Shown: positions 21,788 through 45,890, counted from the stretch's first letter. The stretch: DNA of 64,000 nucleotides from a virus (IMGVR_UViG_3300013382_000004); one strand, 5' to 3'. The notes: generated from the sequence alone by a model not told the origin. Numbers and translations: made by a program.

Positions 21788-23515
21788 TTAGGCAAAAGCT
21801 TTGGTCTCAACAGTGTCATAACGCTTATTCAACAGTACTTCCATAAGAGCATCCCAAGGATTCGTCTTGCCTGAGAGAACCATTTTCAAAGTATTTACAC
21901 TAAACCCACTAACCATGATACCATAGTCATTCTTGGTCATGGGAAAGCCATTATTTGTGTTACCATTTCCTGTGGTATTCCAGTAGATAATCATGGGCAT
22001 ATCATATCCAGCATCCTTGTACTTCTGCTCAATGGACTTAAGGAAAGCAGGAGCTTCCTGAGCAGTAGCACGAGTACTGTTATAACCCCAATAACCATAA
22101 CCACCGTAGCCGCGACCACCAGTACTAATGTTACGAATGTTTACCATAGAATCCCAACCACCATCACTGATAATCAGAATATTCTTGGGCAAATCACTCT
22201 GAGGGGAATGATTATCAATGGCAGTTTCAAGAATCAGGTCAAACACAGCCTCAAGGTTGGTATTATTAATTTCATTATGACGGGCGGCTTCCATAAGATT
22301 CTCGCGCAAAGAGTCGTGATTAACATTAACCATCTGAGGACGAGAAGAGAAAGTAATGTAACGACCCTTATATGCACCCTTAGCACGCTCTGCAAAGTAA
22401 ATTGCAAGAGAGTTGGCTACTTCAAGGGCAGTCAGACGAGTACGACCAACATTGGTACACATAGAACCAGAGCCATCTGCAACAACAATAGTAGAACTAT
22501 CATCAGTTACAAGATTGGGAAGAGACTTCCACATACCTTCGAGAGTAGCATCATAAGAACGAGGAGCACTATTCCACGAACCATCACAATACTTATGAAC
22601 GATATCACAAGGATTAGCTACAGAAGAGTTAATCTTTGCTTCGCCCTTGGTAAGAGCATTTAGATAAGCACGACGGCGCTCTTCATCATTACGAAGGAAA
22701 GCATTGTTGTAGTTGAGATTGGCCTTGGAAGGAACAGTCTCATAATCAATGCTCTGCCAATTCTGAGAAGACATCTTACGCTCAACAACGTCAAGATGCT
22801 TGCGAAGAGCAGACAAACCCTTGCGATACTCACGCTCAGTCAAACCGAGCATATCCATCGTCTTAAGACCACGCTTACGAGTGTCATGGCTGTGAGAAGA
22901 AGCGCTATCAAGCCACTTTGCCATAAGGCTAATGGACTTCCCCTTCTTCATATTAGCCATGTCTTCCTTCCACTGCTTACGAATCAGTTCACGAACAACA
23001 GGCTTAGTAGTGGGATTATCCATGACAGCATAAATATAATCCCAACGAGAATATTCAGGAATCATGGGAATCAAGTTCGCCACAATCTGAGCACCACCAT
23101 TGTTCATCATATCCTCAAGGCAAATCTTAAAAAGACGGCGCTGGCCCTGACCCTCACGGATATCGCCAGCGTAAAACAGCCAACGAATAGCGAGACGAGG
23201 ATTCTCAGAATAAGCCGCACGGAACTTCTTCACAATATCACCATCAGGGAGGCTACGAAGAGCAGAGATGGAAGTATTGATATCCAGAAGAGCAGAACCA
23301 GAAGACTCATATGCAATAGCACCATTAGAAGTGTACAGCTTGTCGGCGGGAAGAGTAGGAACTGCAACCTGAGTGTAGTAGCCTTTAGCAGTCTTCTCAA
23401 CCTTGTCCATAAAGGAAGCCTTACGGTTGGTTCGATTGGTCTGAACAGTCTTCTCAGGCTTAGGTGCCCAAGCCTTAGTATTCTTCTTCTTGTTAGGATT
23501 ATTATAGTTATACAT
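21788..23515 (-). CDS. DUF2828 family TROVE/Ro60-like protein with C-terminal vWA domain
   Basis: TSNGAIAY..SG, DIREGQGQR..F, AKW, IDYETVPSKA helical region; vWA MIDAS DGSGSM and ISD. Confidence 0.82.
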   Translation of the reverse strand: MYNYNNPNKKKNTKAWAPKPEKTVQTNRTNRKASFMDKVEKTAKGYYTQVAVPTLPADKLYTSNGAIAYESSGSALLDINTSISALRSLPDGDIVKKFRAAYSENPRLAIRWLFYAGDIREGQGQRRLFKICLEDMMNNGGAQIVANLIPMIPEYSRWDYIYAVMDNPTTKPVVRELIRKQWKEDMANMKKGKSISLMAKWLDSASSHSHDTRKRGLKTMDMLGLTEREYRKGLSALRKHLDVVERKMSSQNWQSIDYETVPSKANLNYNNAFLRNDEERRRAYLNALTKGEAKINSSVANPCDIVHKYCDGSWNSAPRSYDATLEGMWKSLPNLVTDDSSTIVVADGSGSMCTNVGRTRLTALEVANSLAIYFAERAKGAYKGRYITFSSRPQMVNVNHDSLRENLMEAARHNEINNTNLEAVFDLILETAIDNHSPQSDLPKNILIISDGGWDSMVNIRNISTGGRGYGGYGYWGYNSTRATAQEAPAFLKSIEQKYKDAGYDMPMIIYWNTTGNGNTNNGFPMTKNDYGIMVSGFSVNTLKMVLSGKTNPWDALMEVLLNKRYDTVETKAFA

Positions 23516-23537: not shown

Positions 23538-23597
23538 CTAGACTCTTTTGTCCTTTTTTCAAAATAAAAGTTTTTGTAGTTTGCTGTGAGAGTCTAA
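23538..23597 (-). ncRNA. ACAGCAA stem element copy 1 (5' leader of the TROVE-like gene)
   Basis: TAGACTC-TC-ACAGCAA...GAGTCTAG between promoter and SD. Confidence 0.75.
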
Positions 23598-39372: not shown

Positions 39373-39533
39373 AGCTTCCGACAGGAATCGAACCTGCAAC
39401 ATCCTGATTACTGGGGATAGAAATGAGATTCGAACTCATAACAGTTATTAACTGACCTTGGGGGCTACCCTTCAGACATTACCTTTCTGTCATTCTACCA
39501 AATCAGGCGCTCTACCAATTGAGCCACGGAAGC
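39373..39533 (-). tRNA. tRNA-Thr(UGU) interrupted between positions 34/35 by an 88-nt tRNA-like insert (39412-39499); no encoded CCA
   Basis: exons join to CCTGA-TTTGTAA-TCAGG. Confidence 0.85.
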
Positions 39534-39558
39534 AAATAAAGGACTAAACAAATAGTCC

Positions 39559-40074
39559 TTATCCACGAGTACGTTTCCAATAATTTGCCATTTTATATTC
39601 AGGCTTATTAGTAACTTCCTCGATAAATACTTCAGGAAAAGGCCAAACATAACTATTGGCTTCTTCCTCAGAATCAAATTCAACTTCGGCATAATAGAAA
39701 GCAGTATCAGTGCCACCATCTACAAGATTGAATTCAATTAGATAACCATTATTGTAAAGACCTCTATAATCTTTTACAATAGGATTATAACCAAGTTCAT
39801 TGAAACAATCAAACAAAGAATTATTTGTAAGATTTGTTTCAATTTCAGTACGGGTTAAATTACCACCAGACTTAAAAGTAAGAGCATCTGGACGATAACC
39901 TTTACCACTTTCAAACCAACGTCTTATACGAATTTCCTGTAAAATACTTCCATCAGAATTATATTTAATATTAATATAGATAGTTTTAACAATTCCGACT
40001 TCATCAAAATCGACTTTAGGAAAACCAGAGATTAAAAACTTACGTTCGATTTCGATTGAATTCTTATTGCTCAT
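39559..40074 (-). CDS. CYTH-domain (triphosphate tunnel) protein
   Basis: EIERKFL, IRIR, LTFK, RTEIE, K.Y, YAEVEF, EVT..PEY; true start MSNK after AAGGAG. Confidence 0.85.
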   Translation of the reverse strand: MSNKNSIEIERKFLISGFPKVDFDEVGIVKTIYINIKYNSDGSILQEIRIRRWFESGKGYRPDALTFKSGGNLTRTEIETNLTNNSLFDCFNELGYNPIVKDYRGLYNNGYLIEFNLVDGGTDTAFYYAEVEFDSEEEANSYVWPFPEVFIEEVTNKPEYKMANYWKRTRG

Positions 40075-40096
40075 TTTTAATCTCCTTTTCTTTCCA

Positions 40097-40185
40097 TGGC
40101 GCACGCTACAGGGTTCGAACCTGTGATACCTTACAGTATGCCAGTTTTCAAGACTGGTGTAATCAACCAACTCTACCAAACGTGC
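40097..40185 (-). tRNA. tRNA-Ser(UGA)
   Basis: CCAGT-CTTGAAA-ACTGG; long variable arm; G73. Confidence 0.9.
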
Positions 40186-40187
40186 AT

Positions 40188-40409
40188 TTATGTTTCAGAG
40201 AATAGATAAATATCTTTCTCTCCTACATCTTTTTTAATATCAGCAAATTCTTTATCACTAATTTGAGTCATTGGAGGGAACACACATTTAAAAGAAGAAC
40301 AGCCATCTTTTTCAATACAGACAATTTGCTTCTTACAAACTGGGCAAGTATAATTCCAAGATAAAAGATTAGTTTCATTCTTAGCAACTTTAATTTCTGT
40401 TACTTGCAT
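40188..40409 (-). CDS. small zinc-binding protein
   Basis: CPVC...C...C. Confidence 0.55.
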   Translation of the reverse strand: MQVTEIKVAKNETNLLSWNYTCPVCKKQIVCIEKDGCSSFKCVFPPMTQISDKEFADIKKDVGEKDIYLFSET

Positions 40410-40516
40410 TATTCCCTTATTACAATGAGGGCATCTATAAACAAACTTTTTATTACTTGCTGTCTAATAAATGTAAGTCTTAAAATTAGTCATTGAATTT
40501 GCTTCCTTTTGTTTTT

Positions 40517-40586
40517 TGGTTGCTGAACCCATTATTACTTGGGTATGAGCCAAGTGTGATTTATATATCCGTTTCACTCGCCAGCA
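40517..40586 (-). pseudogene. initiator-type tRNA-Met(CAU) with the T arm largely deleted
   Basis: CTTGG-CTCATAC-CCAAG anticodon arm; GGGTTC fused directly to AGCAACCA. Confidence 0.65.
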
Positions 40587-40587
40587 A

Positions 40588-40663
40588 TGGTGGACCTGAC
40601 AAGACTTGAACTTGCGACTTCCTGCGTGCAAAGCAGACACTCTCCCAACTGAGTTACAGGCCC
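40588..40663 (-). tRNA. tRNA-Ala(UGC)
   Basis: G3.U70; CTGC-TTTGCAC-GCAG. Confidence 0.92.
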
Positions 40664-40942
40664 AAATATTCTCTCTTATCCCTACTCAATAGTAAGTTCG
40701 TAATTCATTATTGGCGAATTCGTAACTTACTATCTTTCGGCATTGCAATGAGAGAATTCTCTAATTGTTTTCGTTCAATTTCTGAAGAAAATTTCTAAAC
40801 AAGCGAAGTCTTTTTCTTGTTTTACTGACCTAAAAGACCCAAATTAACAGGTTGTCATTCTTTTAAATTTACCGTAAAAAGAATCTGTGACTAAGAAAAC
40901 CGTCTCAATCTCTTATTCGCGTAATAAGATGAAAGAAATTCT

Positions 40943-41019
40943 AAGTGGCGCTGTACCTAACAGCTTCCTGCAAGGGTTTCCCACGAGCGGGGCAGGACTC
41001 GAACCTACACTCTCCACTT
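40943..41019 (-). ncRNA. circularly permuted tRNA-like RNA without the ACAGCAA stem
   Basis: AAGTGG...T arm GTAGG/CCTGC...closed acceptor...D arm GCTG/CAGC...CCACTT. Confidence 0.6.
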
Positions 41020-41020
41020 T

Positions 41021-41106
41021 TGGTGCAGATAAAGAGATTTGAACTCTTACACTTTTAAAGCACGAGAACCTAAATCTCGCATGTCTTCCAATTCCATCAT
41101 ATCTGC
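41021..41106 (-). tRNA. tRNA-Leu(UAG)
   Basis: CGAGA-TTTAGGT-TCTCG; long variable arm. Confidence 0.9.
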
Positions 41107-41486
41107 ATAACAAAAGAGTTTTTAACAAGAACTCATTAACTTGGCTTTTGTTGTTCATCCTCAGCACCACCTGTTAGGAGCAATAAGCAGTATGCTCGGC
41201 TTATTGTGTTTTAAGGTTACATGACCCATAACCTCAATACCTACCCCGATTTAGTTGCAGTAATCAGAGTTTTTGTTTGAACAAATGCGCAACCATTTGC
41301 TCCCGTAGACACGGCACTGACTTCTCCGTATAGCTTTACGCTGTAGGTTTTGATGTTACATTCGACCCCTAACATCTAACCGTATATCAGTGTTCTACCC
41401 TCGTCAAGAACCATTCACTTGTTCTCTACTCCTTTTACAGGCGGGCATAAGGGGGATGATGTTTTGTTAGTCTATCATCAAGACCA

Positions 41487-41571
41487 TGGTAGCTGAGGTG
41501 GGACTTGAACCCACATCTCTTTCGAGGGTTGTACTTGAAGCAACTGCGTATGCCAATTTCGCCACTCAGCC
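41487..41571 (-). tRNA. tRNA-Leu(CAA)
   Basis: loop TTCAAGT; long variable arm. Confidence 0.88.
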
Positions 41572-41584
41572 ATAATAATTAATA

Positions 41585-41701
41585 CTAGACACGTTTTTTG
41601 ATTTCCAGCAACCACGCATCTTCCAAAGAAGATTAAGGAGTCGAACCTTATCGTTAATTTTCCATATTAAAGCATCAAGTAATTTTGCTGTGCGTGTCTA
41701 C
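41585..41701 (-). ncRNA. ACAGCAA stem element copy 6 with permuted T arm and acceptor
   Basis: GTAGACACG/CGTGTCTAG; TAAGG-TTCGACT-CCTTA; ATCTTC/GAAGAT. Confidence 0.78.
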
Positions 41702-41768
41702 TTGAAAGGAATTTATGTTTACCTATTAGAAAAATAGGAGCGTCAACTTTTTTATTTTTAGTTAATGA

Positions 41769-41898
41769 CTAGACTCGTTTTACAAAATCTGTTGCTCTGC
41801 CAATTGAGCTAACTCCCGATGGTCGGGAGTGAAGGACTTGAACCTCCAACACACAGGCCCATAGCATTTGTTATTGTAAAGTTGCTGTTAGAGTCTAC
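41769..41898 (-). ncRNA. ACAGCAA stem element copy 7, YrlA-like permuted tRNA domain
   Basis: T arm, ACTCCCG-ACCA-T-CGGGAGT closed acceptor, D arm GCTC/GAGC. Confidence 0.85.
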
Positions 41899-42025
41899 TT
41901 GAAAGGAATGCTTTTATGAACAATAAAAAATGAACATTAGCTTACAAATAAATTTGTATCTTTACCATGTTTTTACTATAACATAAAATTTTCATTTTGT
42001 CAAGAGTTTTAAAACAAAATTTTAT

Positions 42026-42110
42026 TGGTGGGTGAGGAAGGTGCCGACCCTTCTACTCCGTTAGGAAACAAATTTACAGTCTGTCGTGTTTGCCGATTCA
42101 CTACTCACCC
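42026..42110 (-). tRNA. tRNA-Tyr(GUA)
   Basis: ACAGA-CTGTAAA-TTTGT; variable arm; atypical T loop GTCGGCA. Confidence 0.88.
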
Positions 42111-42138
42111 ATTTAATTATTTCTCTTTTAGAAAGGGG

Positions 42139-42202
42139 CTAGACGCTTTTGTGTATTCTTATTTAACAGATAAGTACATTTAAAATTGCTGTAAGCGTCT
42201 AC
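42139..42202 (-). ncRNA. ACAGCAA stem element copy 8
   Basis: GTAGACGC-TT-ACAGCAA...GCGTCTAG. Confidence 0.75.
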
Positions 42203-42241
42203 TATAATGAAATCATATTACAAAATTAGCATTTCTGCTAT

Positions 42242-42366
42242 TGGTGCGTCTGGAGAGATTCGAACTCTCGATACCCGCATTATGGGGTTGGATATAAGTC
42301 TTGAACTTATCGAGGCCCTAATGCTATCCAACAAAGTGCGGTGCCTTACCACTTGGCCACAAACGC
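42242..42366 (-). tRNA. tRNA-Lys(UUU) interrupted between positions 35/36 by a 50-nt tRNA-like insert (42283-42332)
   Basis: exons join to CCGCA-CTTTTAA-TGCGG. Confidence 0.85.
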
Positions 42367-42373
42367 ATAAATA

Positions 42374-42501
42374 CTAGAGACATTGTAGTTATGGACTCCT
42401 GCCTTGCCACTTGGCTACACTCTTCAACCGAAGGTGCTCGGATTCGAACCGAGGGATGGGAGTTTGGCTTATTAACTTTCAAAATTGCTGTTAGTCTCTA
42501 C
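42374..42501 (-). ncRNA. ACAGCAA stem element copy 9, YrlA-like permuted tRNA domain
   Basis: GTAGAGAC/GTCTCTAG; ACTCC/GGAGT anticodon stem, CTCGG-TTCGAAT-CCGAG, closed acceptor, GCC-AAGTGGCAA-GGC D arm. Confidence 0.85.
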
Positions 42502-42676
42502 TTTACAAATATCATCTTATTGAAAGGAAATTATTCATATCAGATAGAGAAAAAGGAGAAGTAGCATTTCGTCAAGTACTAAATCTTTAGCCCTTTGATA
42601 GATTTAAGTTCCCCTCATTTAACTCCGATAAAACTTACTCACACTATCATAAGAACGGATTTCTGATTTGAACAAA

Positions 42677-42752
42677 TGGTGATGGGTGCGGGAGTCGAAC
42701 CCAGCGTTTAGGACGTGAAAGGCCCTCGTCTTAGCCACTTGACTAACCCACC
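42677..42752 (-). tRNA. tRNA-Glu(UUC)
   Basis: AGGGC-CTTTCAC-GTCCT. Confidence 0.88.
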
Positions 42753-42762
42753 ATATTATAAC

Positions 42763-42880
42763 CTAGACTCTTTTGCGTATTATTCACCACAGAGCGCCCT
42801 CTGACGAGAATCGAACTCGCTAATGATTGTTTTCAAGACAATTGTGTTAACCTTTTAAGGAATTTGCTGTAAGAGTCTAC
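42763..42880 (-). ncRNA. ACAGCAA stem element copy 10, tRNA domain permuted in the D loop, intact UGA anticodon arm
   Basis: ATTGT-CTTGAAA-ACAAT; GCGAG-TTCGATT-CTCGT; CAGAG-GGCG-CTCTG. Confidence 0.8.
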
Positions 42881-43072
42881 TTTTCAATTACTTTTCAGGA
42901 GGTTTAGCCTATATTTTTATTATAACACATCATTCATAGAATGTCAACCACTTTTTAAAATTTTCTTTTGTACTTTTTGAGAAGATTTATTTTTATTTTT
43001 TATTCTTCTCTTAAGATGTATTTATCTTACCACATTTTTAGATTTCTGTCAAGACTTTATTAGAATTTTCTT

Positions 43073-43354
43073 TTACTCAACAGCCTCATTATAAGTCATC
43101 TTCATAATATCAGGCTTAACGGGATAGAACTCACCTTTAATTCCCTTAACGATATAATCACCAACAGAAGCGTAATGGTCTCCCTCAAGGGTATTAATGA
43201 TAAGATTAGTTACAGTACCATTAATAGTATGCTGAGTAGTAACACAACAATGAGCACCAACAAATTCCATAATTTCGGTTTCATTAGTACCATCCCAAAT
43301 AACGGCTTCAATAGTAACTGGCTTCTTAGTATACTTTTTAATCATGAATTTCAC
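43073..43354 (-). CDS. conserved phage protein (KKPV.IEA...TLEG...GDYI..G..GEFYP.KPDI family); possible nucleotide-signal sponge
   Basis: family motif recognised; resemblance to Acb4-type sponges is from memory only. Confidence 0.6.
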   Translation of the reverse strand: MKFMIKKYTKKPVTIEAVIWDGTNETEIMEFVGAHCCVTTQHTINGTVTNLIINTLEGDHYASVGDYIVKGIKGEFYPVKPDIMKMTYNEAVE

Positions 43355-43729
43355 CTTCTTGTGTTTTTAAAAATTTAACCACAAGATATAGCGGCTAAGA
43401 TTTTTTTAAACCCCAGCATATTGTGGTTTAAAGATAAATAAAATGATGATTTTATTTTTACTTTTAATGGGAGCTTAACGTACTCCAAATGAGTAAAACA
43501 ACGGATTTCTTGTTTTTGAGTAAAGCATCAAGAAATATCTAACCCTACTGCTTTATTGGCAACGGAGTTATTTATACTCTCATCCGTCATTCGAGTTTGT
43601 TGTCGGCGCTCAGTCCACCATCTGGGCGAACAACTCCAAGTTCGTCGATGCGAAGACAAACTCCAAGGGTCACATCACTTCCGATGTGATAACTACAATA
43701 ATACCACCACTACTATTGTAGCATATTGC

Positions 43730-43821
43730 CCCCCCATAATTGGATTCGAACCAACTTCCTCTCCCGATGTGGTGTTTACTCACTATCAGTTAATAAGAAT
43801 GCTCCATTACACTAATGGGGA
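43730..43821 (-). pseudogene. tRNA-like RNA with an expanded, irregular anticodon arm
   Basis: TCCCCAT/ATGGGGG acceptor, D arm, GTTGG-TTCGAAT-CCAAT; no canonical 7-nt loop. Confidence 0.55.
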
Positions 43822-44153
43822 TATAAATGTTATAGACCTTTTAACTATAACTCACAGGTTCTCCCTTATACAAACAAGGTGACGGGACATTGCTGTGTTT
43901 TTAAAAGAAAGCCCTTGTTATACTTTTTCTTTCAAGGATTTAATGGTAAGAACATTTCTTGACCTATAGGTGTTCTCAAACCTACTCCTTCACCATACAT
44001 CCAAATGTACTCGCAGGTATACATTGAACATCTCATCCTTAAGGTCAACTGGGGAATCATAAAGCCGTTCGGTTTATTTTTAATTTGAGTAAACCTTCCT
44101 CAAACGCCCCTTCATCCGCTTTTTTAGAAGGATACGGAATCCACGAGTTTTGA

Positions 44154-44241
44154 CGAAGTGGACTGGACTCGAACCAGTACAGTCTTACAACTTACTACTT
44201 GTTTAGCAAACAAGGTCCTTACCAATTAGGATTACCACTCC
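44154..44241 (-). tRNA. tRNA-Ser(GCU)
   Basis: CTTGT-TTGCTAA-ACAAG; long variable arm; 3' end GTCA rather than GCCA. Confidence 0.88.
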
Positions 44242-44254
44242 ATAAATGAGCAAT

Positions 44255-44378
44255 CTTGGCACTTTTTTCTAGCCAACCACGGTTAACCATTCCTTGCTCA
44301 AGGGATACGTTAATAAGGAGTCGAACCTTACACGACGTTATTCCAAAAACATAAAATAAATTTGCTGTGAGTGTCAAC
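44255..44378 (-). ncRNA. ACAGCAA stem element copy 11 with permuted T arm and extended acceptor
   Basis: GTTGACACT/AGTGCCAAG; TAAGG-TTCGACT-CCTTA; CGTGGTTG shared with copy 6. Confidence 0.72.
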
Positions 44379-44397
44379 TTTTTAAATTTGTATCTGC

Positions 44398-44475
44398 TGG
44401 TGAGAGTAACAGGACTCGAACCTGTAAGCCTCCGCCGTGTAAAGGCGGCATTCTAACCAGTTGAACTATACTCCC
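44398..44475 (-). tRNA. tRNA-Val(UAC)
   Basis: CCGCC-TTTACAC-GGCGG. Confidence 0.92.
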
Positions 44476-44608
44476 ATATAATATTGGTTTTTCCGCCAAA
44501 TGCCAAAGGACTTTCGTATTTTACCAACAAACCTCACGTTACTTAATTTATTTATAGACGTTGAGTAATTACGTCTCAACAACACATTTTTTAGAAAGGA
44601 AAACTATC

Positions 44609-45055
44609 TTAACCCACAGCTTCTTCGGATGGACTATCCTCAGAAGGGATGGTATTGCCAGTGTTATCGACAGAGTCATCTGAAGGAACAGGGTTCTCAG
44701 TCTGTGCCAAACTCTCCTTTAACTTTTCATCATGAAGCTCACGGTTTACCTCGTATACAGCGGCTTCAATAGCCTTACGGACTTCATCTGCATCAAGAGT
44801 AATACCAAGAGACTCCATCTGCTGATTAAAATACTTTGTTGCTTCCTGCAAACGCTTTTCAATCTCCCGTGGATACATCTGCTCAACAGCTCGAACAGCA
44901 ATTAGAGCATACTTCTGAATTAGTTCTGCTGTATTAAGAGCTTCATCAATTTTATCCTGTCCAACCTTCTTACGAAGATAAGGAATAAGAAAAATTGTAA
45001 TAGCCAGAGCACAGAGACCAATTACAGCAACTACAATAGGGGTAATGTCAGTCAT
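44609..45055 (-). CDS. LL-H-family holin-like protein
   Basis: N-terminal TM + IPYL; AVRAVEQ; IEAAVYE. Confidence 0.75.
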   Translation of the reverse strand: MTDITPIVVAVIGLCALAITIFLIPYLRKKVGQDKIDEALNTAELIQKYALIAVRAVEQMYPREIEKRLQEATKYFNQQMESLGITLDADEVRKAIEAAVYEVNRELHDEKLKESLAQTENPVPSDDSVDNTGNTIPSEDSPSEEAVG

Positions 45056-45133
45056 TTTTGTACTTCCTTTTTTACATTTTGAATTATAACATCTAACAAA
45101 CGCTTTATCAAGTGTTTATTAAATAAAATTTAA

Positions 45134-45267
45134 TGGAGCAAGATACGAGATTCGAACTCGCCCTTACGGTTTTGGTCCTTTAAGTAAGACTTGAACTTAC
45201 ATCAATGGTTTTTCATTAAACTATTAAAGGGGAAGACCGTCGTGCTAACCGCTAACACTAATCCTGC
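45134..45267 (-). tRNA. tRNA-Gly(UCC) interrupted between positions 36/37 by a 58-nt tRNA-like insert (45173-45230)
   Basis: exons join to ACGGT-CTTCCAA-ACCGT; U73. Confidence 0.85.
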
Positions 45268-45417
45268 ATATATGATACCACCCACGTATGAATGGTATCA
45301 AACTCCATGCTCCGTAGAGACCTCATGCTAGCCTGATAGGTTTCCTACTAAGATACCAGTAAAGTAATGAGCTTAACCAGACAAACGTAGACTTAACCAA
45401 TGGAGTATCTAGCTTAA

Positions 45418-45888
45418 TTAATATTCAAGAACATCCCAGTCACAATAATAAATATGATGACTCATAAGATAAGAGCTAAGAATTTCTTCCTCAGATTGAT
45501 TTCTAAGTTTCTCAATTTTTTGCTCTAAGTCCTTAATATAAAAACTTCTCTTCTCAATCTCTTTTGTATATTTACGAAGTTTCGCTTCTACTTCTTTAAG
45601 TAAAATATAAAGACGCTTTTGCTGGTCATCAGAAAGAGTTTCTAATGAATCCAAAGATTCCATTAAATCATTCTTTCTCTGACAATATTCTTTATGTTGT
45701 TCAATATAAGGCTGTCTTTCTTTTTTAGCAATCGCTACCTTGTCTGTAAGATATTTAATATCTTCATAAAGTTTAACACTTGCTTCAAGAAAATAACTTT
45801 GTTTATCTTTAAGCATAACTTCTTCCGTCATTACAGCATCAACAGAAGATTCTTCATACCAACCCGTATACTTAAGCCAAACTTTCAT
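45418..45888 (-). CDS. coiled-coil protein
   Basis: 156-aa ORF with heptads. Confidence 0.65.
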   Translation of the reverse strand: MKVWLKYTGWYEESSVDAVMTEEVMLKDKQSYFLEASVKLYEDIKYLTDKVAIAKKERQPYIEQHKEYCQRKNDLMESLDSLETLSDDQQKRLYILLKEVEAKLRKYTKEIEKRSFYIKDLEQKIEKLRNQSEEEILSSYLMSHHIYYCDWDVLEY

Positions 45889-45890
45889 AA

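What the first reader, a model, noticed from the sequence alone, without database searches (positions are those of the whole stretch)
42283..42332. Insert 3: 50-nt acceptor + T-arm minihelix inside tRNA-Lys(UUU)
GTTGGAT/ATCCAAC acceptor plus ATAAG-TTCAAGA-CTTAT T arm plus CCCA, joined by a 15-nt linker. This is essentially the known minimal RNase P substrate (coaxial acceptor/T helix with CCA), which suggests selection for processability rather than decoding.
Basis: partly seen in the sequence, partly recalled or inferred. Interest (0 to 1): 0.7.

Follow-up and report, generated by a model that had tools for sequence, protein, structure and literature searches.

The report
tRNA-shaped mini-intron in phage tRNA-Lys
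The lysine tRNA gene of this large phage is split inside its anticodon by a conserved 50-base insert shaped like the top half of a tRNA. It belongs to a mobile family of inserts whose ends lie where tRNA-trimming enzymes cut, which suggests, but does not prove, a so far undescribed way of splicing tRNAs.

Summary
On the minus strand, 42332-42283 is a 50-nt insert between anticodon bases 35 and 36 of a good tRNA-Lys(UUU) gene (42366-42242). It has a perfect 7-bp acceptor stem, a 15-nt linker, a 5-bp T stem with loop TTCAAGA, then C-CCA, directly followed by exon 2.

It is not a one-off. Three other tRNAs in the window and seven tRNA species across five related 116-216 kb phages carry such inserts. 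All 17 distinct inserts run from acceptor base 1 to an N-CCA-type tail. They sit at four different anticodon-loop positions, and five of the seven species are intron-plus in some genomes and intron-minus in others. A relative of the Lys insert in another phage's tRNA-Glu is 844 nt long and carries an HNH homing-endonuclease gene, so the 50-nt form is probably a stripped-down mobile intron.

Best reading: a tRNA-shaped intron cut at its 5' end by RNase P, cut after CCA by an unidentified nuclease, with the exons sealed by the phage's Rnl1-type ligase. No RNA or enzyme evidence exists.

The only published precedent I found is the 'enigmatic introns' of Lak megaphages. This scan has reported the same class before on other phage DNA.

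The parts
42242..42366 (-). Interrupted tRNA-Lys(UUU) gene, 125 nt, ending in an encoded ACCA
   Evidence: Rfam tRNA 55.1 bits with the insert as a loop gap. Plain ARAGORN misses it. ARAGORN -i finds it with a 50-nt intron but shifts the intron by 1 nt and calls the tRNA Gln.
42333..42366 (-). Exon 1: acceptor 5' strand, D arm, anticodon stem 5' strand CCGCA, loop bases C32 U33 U34 U35
   Evidence: Sequence. 98.4% mean pairwise identity among six related phages.
42283..42332 (-). 50-nt tRNA-shaped insert (mini-intron) between anticodon bases 35 and 36
   Evidence: Identical in 5 of 6 genomes; the only change is T-stem U-A to U.G in G001. 99.3% identity against 83% and 43% in the 200-nt flanks.
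42326..42332 (-). Insert acceptor 5' strand GUUGGAU. The predicted RNase P cut lies immediately 5' of G at 42332, with U at -1.
   Evidence: 7/7 Watson-Crick pairs with 42293-42287.
42311..42325 (-). 15-nt linker AGCAUUAGGGCCUCG, standing in for the D arm, anticodon arm and variable region
   Evidence: Invariant in all six genomes. Its role is unknown; a D-loop-like GG contact with the T loop is only an inference.
42294..42310 (-). Insert T arm: AUAAG / UUCAAGA / CUUAU
   Evidence: 5/5 pairs; the loop fits the U54 U55 C56 R57 A58 consensus; the stem ends in a G-C pair, as in all 21 inserts compared.
42287..42293 (-). Insert acceptor 3' strand AUCCAAC
42283..42286 (-). Discriminator C plus CCA. 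The 3' junction lies immediately after the A at 42283.
   Evidence: Tails of the 18 insert alleles tabulated in the six genomes: ACCA 10, CCCA 4, TCCA 1, ACAA 2, TTCA 1.
42242..42282 (-). Exon 2: loop bases U36 A37 A38, anticodon stem 3' strand UGCGG, variable loop, T arm, acceptor 3' strand, ACCA
   Evidence: 99.2% identity among the six genomes.
37301..37359 (-). Sister insert, 59 nt, in tRNA-Ile(UAU) at 36/37
39412..39499 (-). Sister insert, 88 nt, in tRNA-Thr(UGU) at 34/35. It is absent from the same gene in G002-G005.
45173..45230 (-). Sister insert, 58 nt, in tRNA-Gly(UCC) at 36/37. It is absent from the otherwise identical gene in G004 and G005.
   Evidence: Contigs from RNA-library runs X17 and X18 skip exactly 45173-45230.

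Best explanation
The 50-nt stretch is a miniature, ORF-less member of a family of mobile, tRNA-shaped introns that live in the anticodon loops of phage tRNA genes.

Shown: the insert is a discrete unit that runs from base 1 of its own acceptor stem to its own N-CCA. It is as conserved as the tRNA exons. Family members are gained and lost precisely between close relatives. A longer relative carries an HNH homing-endonuclease gene.

Inferred: the precursor folds as a tRNA-Lys with a second acceptor/T-arm domain hanging from its anticodon loop.
1. Host RNase P reads that inner domain like any pre-tRNA and cuts between U35 and the insert's G1, leaving a 3'-OH on exon 1.
2. A second endonuclease cuts directly after the insert's CCA, leaving a 5'-phosphate on exon 2. 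Candidates are a host RNase Z acting after CCA, as in Thermotoga maritima, or the phage's own beta-CASP RNase.
3. The two exons are still held together by the anticodon stem. They form a nicked anticodon loop with 3'-OH and 5'-phosphate ends, the kind of break an ATP-dependent, T4 Rnl1-type ligase seals. All five relatives encode such a ligase, beside a kinase/HD-phosphatase.

The products would be a normal tRNA-Lys(UUU) with loop CUUUUAA and a free CCA-ended minihelix. At the DNA level the family probably spreads by endonuclease-driven homing.
For: Anatomy and significance.

The outer gene is a bona fide tRNA, and exact excision restores an anticodon stem-loop found in uninterrupted phage tRNA-Lys genes.

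Family rule: 17 distinct inserts in six genomes, 11 different acceptor sequences, 119/119 and 85/85 paired cells. Within-family compensatory changes:
- Glu insert, pair 2:71, A-T versus T-A
- Gln insert, pair 5:68, A-T versus G-C
- Lys insert versus the L077 Glu insert, pair 4:69, G-C versus A-T

Boundaries are fixed to the inner tRNA's ends, not to a position in the outer loop. Four insertion positions occur.

Intron-minus alleles of Gly, Thr, Pro, Glu and Gln exist in sister genomes and differ by exactly the insert. RNA-library contigs skip exactly the 58-nt Gly insert.

The interrupted Lys and Ile(UAU) genes are the only copies of those anticodons found in the complete 216-kb relative G005. 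The Lys exons are 98-99% conserved, which argues that they still function.

Mobility: the Lys insert's 3' 28 nt match, at 24/28 positions, an insert in tRNA-Glu of other phages. In G006 that insert is 844 nt long and encodes a 243-aa HNH protein, 29% identical (E = 2e-13) to the window's HNH ORF beside tRNA-Thr.

Ligase: an Rnl1-family gene in 5/5 relatives, preceded by a P-loop kinase + HD gene. Other insert-bearing phages have an Rnl2-family gene (G011, 79.6 bits) or a weak Rnl2-like gene with motif KMHGT. A beta-CASP RNase is present in 4/5 relatives.

Literature: RNase P cleaves acceptor/T-stem-loop model substrates (PMC11143913). T. maritima RNase Z cuts just after an encoded CCA (PMC7479834).
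Against: There is no RNA-level or enzymatic evidence. The only RNA-library contig covering the Lys gene retains the insert, and such contigs cannot separate DNA from RNA.

RNase P explains only the 5' cut. No bacterial enzyme is known to cut a structured RNA exactly after an internal CCA in this context.

Two family members have imperfect tails (ACAA, TTCA).

The inner acceptor end is tethered to the outer anticodon stem by only 4 and 7 nt, which could hinder RNase P.

Minimum-free-energy folding prefers other pairings by 4.7 kcal/mol.

Rnl1 is absent from the G006-G010 clade and from G011-G014, which also carry such inserts. ATP-dependent RNA ligases are common in large phages anyway (PMC7824862).

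The ligase gene was not found within this 64-kb window; it is known only from relatives.
Confidence: 0.55

Rival explanations
1. The insert is spliced, but not by RNase P. A dedicated phage or host endonuclease recognises the tRNA-shaped insert or the three-way junction and cuts both sides, leaving 2',3'-cyclic phosphate and 5'-OH ends. The phage kinase/HD-phosphatase heals these ends and the Rnl1-type ligase seals them, as T4 Pnkp and Rnl1 repair a broken tRNA-Lys.
For: A kinase (AAA_33) + HD gene lies immediately upstream of the Rnl1 gene in relatives, and a healing enzyme would be needless after RNase P/RNase Z-type cuts. A phage beta-CASP RNase exists. This rival also removes the need for an unexplained cut after CCA.
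Against: It gives no reason why every insert should begin exactly at acceptor base 1 and end in N-CCA, or keep a T loop of tRNA consensus. No splicing-endonuclease homologue was found in five relatives. Heal-and-seal cassettes are common anti-defence equipment in large phages (PMC7824862).
Confidence: 0.2
2. The insert is not spliced. It is selfish DNA that has disrupted the gene, or the chimeric RNA has another role, such as a decoy for anticodon nucleases or other tRNA-targeting host defences. The host supplies tRNA-Lys.
For: No spliced product has been seen. The window and its relatives are rich in tRNA mimics (the permuted 'handle' RNAs) and in RNA-repair and anti-defence genes. tRNA-Lys(UUU) is a classic target of anticodon nucleases (my own knowledge: PrrC).
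Against: The exons are 98-99% identical across genomes whose flanks are 43-83% identical, and they still fold into a perfect cloverleaf. Intron-plus and intron-minus alleles of Gly have virtually identical exons. The interrupted genes are the only copies of their anticodons.
Confidence: 0.13
3. The released CCA-ended minihelix is the selected product, for example a substrate or sponge for enzymes or toxins that act on tRNA 3' ends. The host tRNA gene serves only as a promoter and processing scaffold.
For: The whole 50 nt, including the 15-nt linker, is invariant in six genomes. The CCA is encoded.
Against: Related inserts vary freely in sequence and length (49-844 nt) and keep only the fold. 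They are dispensable in sister genomes. Some have imperfect CCA tails.
Confidence: 0.07

Closest known systems
'Enigmatic' introns in Lak megaphage tRNAs (Devoto et al. 2019, Nat Microbiol; PMC6784885)
   Same: Both are inserts in anticodon loops of tRNA genes of large phages that recode TAG. In both, the insert is almost invariant where present and absent from the same tRNA in related genomes. One Lak intron, in tRNA-Thr(UGU), was noted as possibly encoding a tRNA itself.
   Different: The paper gives no architecture rule, no mechanism and no link to homing endonucleases. I had no Lak sequences to align, so homology is untested. The present insert lacks D and anticodon arms altogether.
RNase P model substrates: acceptor stem + T stem-loop hairpins with 3' CCA (McClain, Guerrier-Takada and Altman 1987, as reviewed in PMC11143913)
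   Same: The same elements are present: a 7 + 5 bp coaxial helix, a T loop and a single-stranded NCCA.
   Different: The model substrates are free hairpins. Here a 15-nt linker interrupts the 5' strand between the two stems, and both ends are tethered inside another tRNA's anticodon loop. Cleavage is untested.
Group I introns in bacterial, plastid and phage tRNA anticodon loops
   Same: Both interrupt the anticodon loop at various positions, can carry homing-endonuclease genes and are mobile.
   Different: Group I introns are self-splicing ribozymes with a large conserved catalytic core. A 50-nt insert cannot hold that core, and no Rfam family matches it.
Archaeal/eukaryal bulge-helix-bulge tRNA introns (splicing endonuclease + ligase)
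   Same: Both would be enzyme-dependent splicing of small tRNA introns. Archaeal introns of this kind can carry homing endonucleases.
   Different: There is no bulge-helix-bulge here: both junctions flank a single three-way junction. The position is 35/36, not 37/38. No EndA homologue was found in five relatives. The setting is bacterial phage, with sigma-70-like promoters and encoded CCA ends.
T4 Pnkp/Rnl1 repair of tRNA-Lys cut by the PrrC anticodon nuclease (own knowledge; summarised in PMC7824862)
   Same: The same tRNA species, the same site (a nick in the anticodon loop) and the same ligase family with an adjacent kinase/phosphatase gene.
   Different: In T4 the break is inflicted by a host defence. 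Here it would be a programmed step of maturation.
tRNA punctuation, and the mascRNA-type release of tRNA-like structures by RNase P and RNase Z (own knowledge)
   Same: A tRNA-shaped element serves only as a processing signal for the tRNA end-maturation enzymes.
   Different: In those systems the flanking RNAs are released, not rejoined.

Membership tests
tRNA (Rfam RF00005) - the outer gene | Cloverleaf scoring above the gathering threshold | tested here: met
   55.1 bits against a threshold of 29, full model 1-71, with the insert treated as a 53-nt loop insertion.
tRNA-Lys(UUU) - the outer gene after excision | 7-nt anticodon loop with U33 and anticodon UUU; a body like other tRNA-Lys genes | tested here: met
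   Loop CUUUUAA. The anticodon stem-loop is identical to that of uninterrupted phage tRNA-Lys genes among 33 IMG/VR loci. The L081 gene also shares the 5' half. A 1-nt shift would give Gln(UUG), as ARAGORN calls it, but the window already has a separate tRNA-Gln(UUG).
RNase P minimal substrate | Acceptor stem stacked on T stem (about 12 bp), T loop, single-stranded 3' NCCA | tested here: met
   7 + 5 perfect pairs, T loop UUCAAGA, tail C-CCA.
RNase P minimal substrate | Is actually cleaved at -1/+1 by RNase P | not testable with these tools
   Needs an in vitro assay or end-mapping of RNA from infected cells.
tRNA-shaped phage tRNA introns (Lak-type 'enigmatic' introns) | Insert in the anticodon loop of a phage tRNA; nearly invariant where present; present or absent between related genomes | tested here: met
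   For Lys itself no intron-minus allele was found in the six genomes or in IMG/VR. Intron-minus alleles were found for Gly, Thr, Pro, Glu and Gln.
tRNA-shaped phage tRNA introns (Lak-type 'enigmatic' introns) | Sequence homology to the published Lak introns | not tested
   No Lak sequence was at hand. GenBank phages gave no match to the interrupted Lys or Thr genes.
Group I intron | Conserved catalytic core (P3-P9), size of about 200 nt or more | tested here: not met
   50 nt; no Rfam hit even at E <= 1.
Bulge-helix-bulge intron | BHB motif at the junctions; splicing endonuclease available | tested here: not met
   The junction geometry is read from the sequence. PF01974 was absent from five relatives while ringing in 4 archaeal controls.
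Homing-endonuclease-bearing mobile intron | Encodes an endonuclease within the intron | tested here: not met
   50 nt cannot hold an ORF. A related insert in G006 does carry one: 844 nt with a 243-aa HNH ORF. The Lys insert is therefore read as an ORF-less derivative.

The most novel reading that the evidence does not exclude
Phage tRNA genes carry a third kind of tRNA intron, neither self-splicing nor bulge-helix-bulge. It is a mobile, tRNA-shaped cassette excised by the ordinary tRNA end-maturation enzymes: RNase P at its 5' end and an RNase Z-like cut after its CCA. The exons are then rejoined by a phage ATP-dependent RNA ligase. If so, the 'tRNA repair' ligases of large phages would also be splicing enzymes, and maturation of these tRNAs would depend on phage gene expression.
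Probability: 0.4. Interest if true: 0.9.

Novelty: new variant of a known kind. Interest (0 to 1): 0.74.

Why it matters
Only two routes of tRNA splicing are established: self-splicing group I introns, and protein splicing of bulge-helix-bulge introns in archaea and eukaryotes. A tRNA-shaped intron removed by RNase P and a 3'-end nuclease, then sealed by an Rnl1/Rnl2-type ligase, would be a third route and the first enzyme-dependent tRNA splicing in the bacterial world.

It would also do three other things:
- give phage RNA ligases a housekeeping role beyond repair of defence damage;
- explain the 'enigmatic' introns reported in Lak megaphages in 2019;
- show how a selfish element can persist in an essential RNA by borrowing the cell's most universal RNA-processing signals.

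In practice, standard tRNA finders miss or misname these genes. Here ARAGORN missed Lys and, in intron mode, called it Gln. tRNA inventories of large phages are therefore biased. The 50-nt form is small enough for direct biochemical tests.

Tried and rejected
No whole genome is held for the window.

GenBank phages gave no match to the region or to the interrupted Lys gene, and only a 41-nt tRNA-body match for the interrupted Thr gene.

RNA evidence: four RNA-library runs were laid on 36000-48400, but all are contigs of relatives. No joint across the Lys insert was listed, and one contig (X17, record 4) retains the insert. The exact 58-nt skip of the Gly insert may be an intron-minus DNA allele rather than spliced RNA. 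Splicing is therefore neither shown nor excluded.

Small ribozymes were considered. No hammerhead-type core is visible in the insert by eye, and no Rfam family hits it.

RtcB is absent from ten insert-bearing phage records. A CCA-adding enzyme is absent from five.

Linking each insert to a neighbouring free-standing endonuclease gene gave no clean pattern. TAG-containing ORFs, likely endonuclease genes, lie beside tRNAs with and without inserts. An ORF with an HNH-like C terminus ends 4 nt before tRNA-Lys in G001, G004 and G005, but not in the window.

A search for the Thr/Pro insert family in IMG/VR found only one further contig.

Seven literature searches found no description beyond Devoto et al. 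2019.

Full report
**Setting.** The window (33% GC) carries a dense tRNA array on the minus strand between about 36.1 and 48.3 kb, among short minus-strand ORFs. An amber-suppressor-type tRNA with anticodon CUA is present. In-frame TAG codons occur mostly in a few ORFs, notably a GIY-YIG ORF (36381-37178, 7 TAG) and an HNH ORF (38432-39310, 5 TAG). This is the pattern of a large phage that partly recodes TAG. No whole genome is held. Five IMG/VR contigs from one metagenome (G001-G005, 116-216 kb) match the tRNA array in blocks that are mostly 74-95% identical. G005 is complete, with terminal repeats.

**The observation.** Read on the minus strand, 42366-42242 is a tRNA. It has acceptor stem GCGUUUG/CAGACGC, a D arm, anticodon stem CCGCA/UGCGG, a T arm and an encoded ACCA. 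Rfam scores it at 55.1 bits with a large insertion in the anticodon loop. Plain ARAGORN misses it.

It reads GUUGGAU, 15 nt, AUAAG-UUCAAGA-CUUAU, AUCCAAC, C-CCA. Removing it leaves the loop CUUUUAA. The resulting anticodon stem-loop occurs in 33 IMG/VR contigs, nearly all as uninterrupted phage tRNA-Lys(UUU) genes. One of them (L081) also shares the 5' half of the gene. The insert therefore sits between anticodon bases 35 and 36. ARAGORN in intron mode shifts it by one base and calls the tRNA Gln(UUG). The homologues, and the separate tRNA-Gln(UUG) in the array, argue for Lys.

I scanned for a strict descriptor: 7-bp acceptor, abutting 5-bp T stem, consensus T loop, NCCA. It hits 18 times on the array strand, representing 13 tRNAs and four inserts. 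It hits nothing on the other strand, and one site in 20 shuffled windows.

Thermodynamic folding is lukewarm. The nested double cloverleaf is 4.7 kcal/mol above the MFE, and the inner acceptor pairs have probability about 0.18.

**It is one of a family.** Three more tRNAs in the window have the same kind of insert:
- Ile(UAU), 59 nt, at 36/37
- Thr(UGU), 88 nt, at 34/35
- Gly(UCC), 58 nt, at 36/37

I fetched the five relatives whole and ran ARAGORN with introns allowed. This gave the following presence/absence pattern:
- Lys: 50 nt in all six genomes.
- Ile(UAU): interrupted in all six, but by a different insert at 32/33 in G001 and G004.
- Thr: present in the window and G001 only.
- Gly: present in the window (58 nt) and in G001 and G003 (69 nt); absent in G004 and G005.
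- Pro: present in G003 and G005 only.
- Glu: present in G002 and G003 only.
- Gln: present in G001 and G002 only.

Where both alleles exist, they differ by exactly the insert.

All 17 distinct inserts begin at base 1 of a 7-bp stem. That stem's 3' strand directly follows a 5-bp T stem with a 7-nt loop, and is followed by N-CCA. All 119 acceptor cells and all 85 T-stem cells are paired. There are 11 different acceptor sequences and 2-5 pair types at every acceptor position. The last T-stem pair is always G-C.

Within-family compensatory changes occur: Glu 2:71 A-T versus T-A, and Gln 5:68 A-T versus G-C. Tails of the 18 tabulated alleles are ACCA (10), CCCA (4), TCCA (1), ACAA (2) and TTCA (1). 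The middle varies widely: nothing but a 15-nt linker in Lys, a D-arm-like hairpin in Ile and Gly, and a nearly complete tRNA shape in Thr.

Similar inserts turned up by chance in unrelated IMG/VR phages (L063, L076, L077, L081).

**Conservation of the Lys insert.** Across the six genomes the insert is 99.3% identical and the exons are 98.4% and 99.2% identical. The 200-nt flanks are 43% (upstream) and 83% (downstream) identical. The single substitution turns a T-stem U-A pair into U.G.

**Link to mobile introns.** The last 28 nt of the Lys insert match, at 24 of 28 positions, an insert in tRNA-Glu(UUC) of another phage clade. The acceptor stem of that insert shows a compensatory change (G4-C69 to A4-T69). 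That Glu insert is 95 nt in three contigs and longer in L142. In the complete 169.5-kb phage G006 it is 844 nt (L148:1529-2372).

The 844-nt form keeps the same tRNA-shaped ends. It encodes a 243-aa protein (L148:1617-2348, four TAG codons) with an HNH motif. This protein is 29% identical (E = 2e-13) to the window's HNH ORF next to tRNA-Thr. The 95-nt form corresponds closely to the two ends of the 844-nt form.

The simplest reading is that these are mobile introns whose core is a tRNA-shaped shell. The endonuclease gene sits where the anticodon arm would be and is often lost. The 50-nt Lys insert would be the most reduced state.

**Mechanism.** What is shown:
- The boundaries follow the inner tRNA's ends, not a fixed position in the outer loop.
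- The retained parts are those read by tRNA end-processing enzymes.
- There is no room for a ribozyme.
- No Rfam family other than tRNA fits.
- No splicing-endonuclease homologue is present in the relatives.

What is inferred: RNase P, which cleaves acceptor/T-stem-loop model substrates (PMC11143913), cuts 5' of the insert's G1. U at -1 fits the common leader base of the array's ordinary tRNAs. A second cut after CCA is needed, and this is the weak point. RNase Z of T. maritima is reported to cut just after encoded CCA, and RNase E is reported to do so occasionally in E. coli (PMC7479834). The relatives also encode a beta-CASP/RMMBL RNase.

RNase P and RNase Z leave 3'-OH and 5'-phosphate ends. 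A nick of that chemistry in a tRNA anticodon loop is the kind of break a T4 Rnl1-type ATP-dependent ligase seals (end chemistry per PMC7824862; the loop preference of T4 Rnl1 is my own knowledge). All five relatives encode an Rnl1-family protein directly downstream of a P-loop kinase + HD protein.

Against a strict Rnl1 dependence, the G006-G010 clade and G011-G014 lack Rnl1. However, G011 has a clear Rnl2-family gene. G006, G007 and G009 have a weak Rnl2-like gene (18.5 bits in Pfam) with a KMHGT motif. G008 gave no hit. RtcB is absent from all records tested.

The kinase/HD gene keeps alive a rival in which an unknown nuclease leaves cyclic-phosphate ends that are healed and then sealed.

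**Is it spliced at all?** The evidence is indirect:
- The interrupted Lys and Ile(UAU) genes are the only copies of those anticodons in the complete relative.
- Their exons are conserved like working tRNAs.
- Intron-plus and intron-minus Gly alleles have virtually identical exons.

Direct evidence is missing. The RNA-library contigs laid on the region come from relatives and cannot separate DNA from RNA. One contig retains the Lys insert. Two contigs skip exactly the Gly insert, which may simply be the intron-minus allele.

**Comparison with what is known.** The closest published report is Devoto et al. 2019 (PMC6784885). It describes Lak megaphage tRNAs with 'enigmatic', highly conserved, variably present introns, one of which 'may itself encode a tRNA'. 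I found no later treatment.

The element is not a group I intron and not a bulge-helix-bulge intron; defining features of both were tested and not met. It resembles an RNase P model substrate in form. Its proposed sealing step resembles T4 repair of tRNA-Lys.

**Earlier notes of this scan.** Notes on the same genome (e1-5647158) list the four nested cases. Follow-up reports on other phage genomes (e1-1968979, e1-5369779, e1-2989568, e1-2989569, e1-3416709 and others) describe the same class, including endonuclease-bearing forms. So the scan has found this before on other DNA. I re-derived the main points independently here.

**Verdict.** Relative to the literature this is a new variant of a barely described kind. 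It offers a concrete and testable possibility of a new splicing route.

Noticed in passing
window 23581-23597, 36353-36369, 37474-37490, 37560-37576, 37820-37836, 41685-41701, 41882-41898, 42186-42202, 42485-42501, 42864-42880, 44362-44378 (all minus strand): A family of about 11 small RNAs. Each has a GUAGAC-like 5' arm, an invariant ACAGCAA, a variable payload and a covarying GUCUAG-like 3' arm. Several payloads are circularly permuted tRNA mimics with the acceptor stem closed by a loop; in one (41898-41769) the closing loop is ACCA-U. The topology recalls bacterial Y RNAs (YrlA). Two copies flank tRNA-Lys.
   Followed up: partly
window 21788-23515 (-): A 575-aa protein with DUF2828 + DUF7788 + a weak vWA match. 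As I recall, TROVE + vWA is the layout of Ro60; this was not tested. A handle-RNA motif lies just upstream at 23581-23597. This may be a phage Ro/Y-RNA-like pair.
   Followed up: no
window 49842-50666 (-): A Thg1-like 3'-5' nucleotidyltransferase (Pfam E = 2.5e-26) close to the tRNA array. Nearby lie a PARP + WGR protein (51897-53141), two weak macro-domain hits (45891-46364, below the Pfam cut-off, and 53244-53960) and an NAD-dependent DNA ligase (61263-63251).
   Followed up: no
window 36381-37178 (-) and 38432-39310 (-): A GIY-YIG ORF and an HNH ORF, rich in in-frame TAG, lie directly downstream of the interrupted tRNA-Ile(UAU) and tRNA-Thr(UGU) genes. In G001, G004 and G005, an ORF with an HNH-like C terminus ends 4 nt before tRNA-Lys. 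This may be a collaborative-homing arrangement, but no clean correlation with insert presence was seen.
   Followed up: partly
window 36138-36293 (-): tRNA-Arg(UCU) abuts the CUA-anticodon suppressor tRNA with no spacer (36213/36212). A single RNase P cut would make both the CCA end of the first tRNA and the 5' end of the second.
   Followed up: no
window 43730-43821 (-) and homologues (G005:73792-73910, G001:30138-30256): An odd 92-119-nt tRNA-like gene (acceptor CCCCAUU...) with a long, variable internal segment. ARAGORN assigns it different anticodons in different genomes. It may be another interrupted or degenerate tRNA.
   Followed up: no
window 39559-40179 (-): A 206-aa ORF between tRNA-Ser and tRNA-Thr with no Pfam hit. 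Its N-terminus (…IEIERKFL…) looks like a CYTH-type triphosphatase signature; this was judged by eye only.
   Followed up: no
L060:172-2532 (G005), L141:721-2181 (G003): Relatives carry a kinase + HD / Rnl1 'heal and seal' gene pair and a separate beta-CASP/RMMBL ribonuclease.
   Followed up: partly
L063:10227-10373 and L076:6157-6306: Unrelated IMG/VR phages carry 75-nt tRNA-shaped inserts ending in N-CCA in a CUA-anticodon suppressor-type tRNA (L076) and a CCA-anticodon tRNA (L063). One acceptor pair (7:66) is unpaired in each, and the T loops are atypical (AGCAAUA, GGCAGUA).
   Followed up: partly
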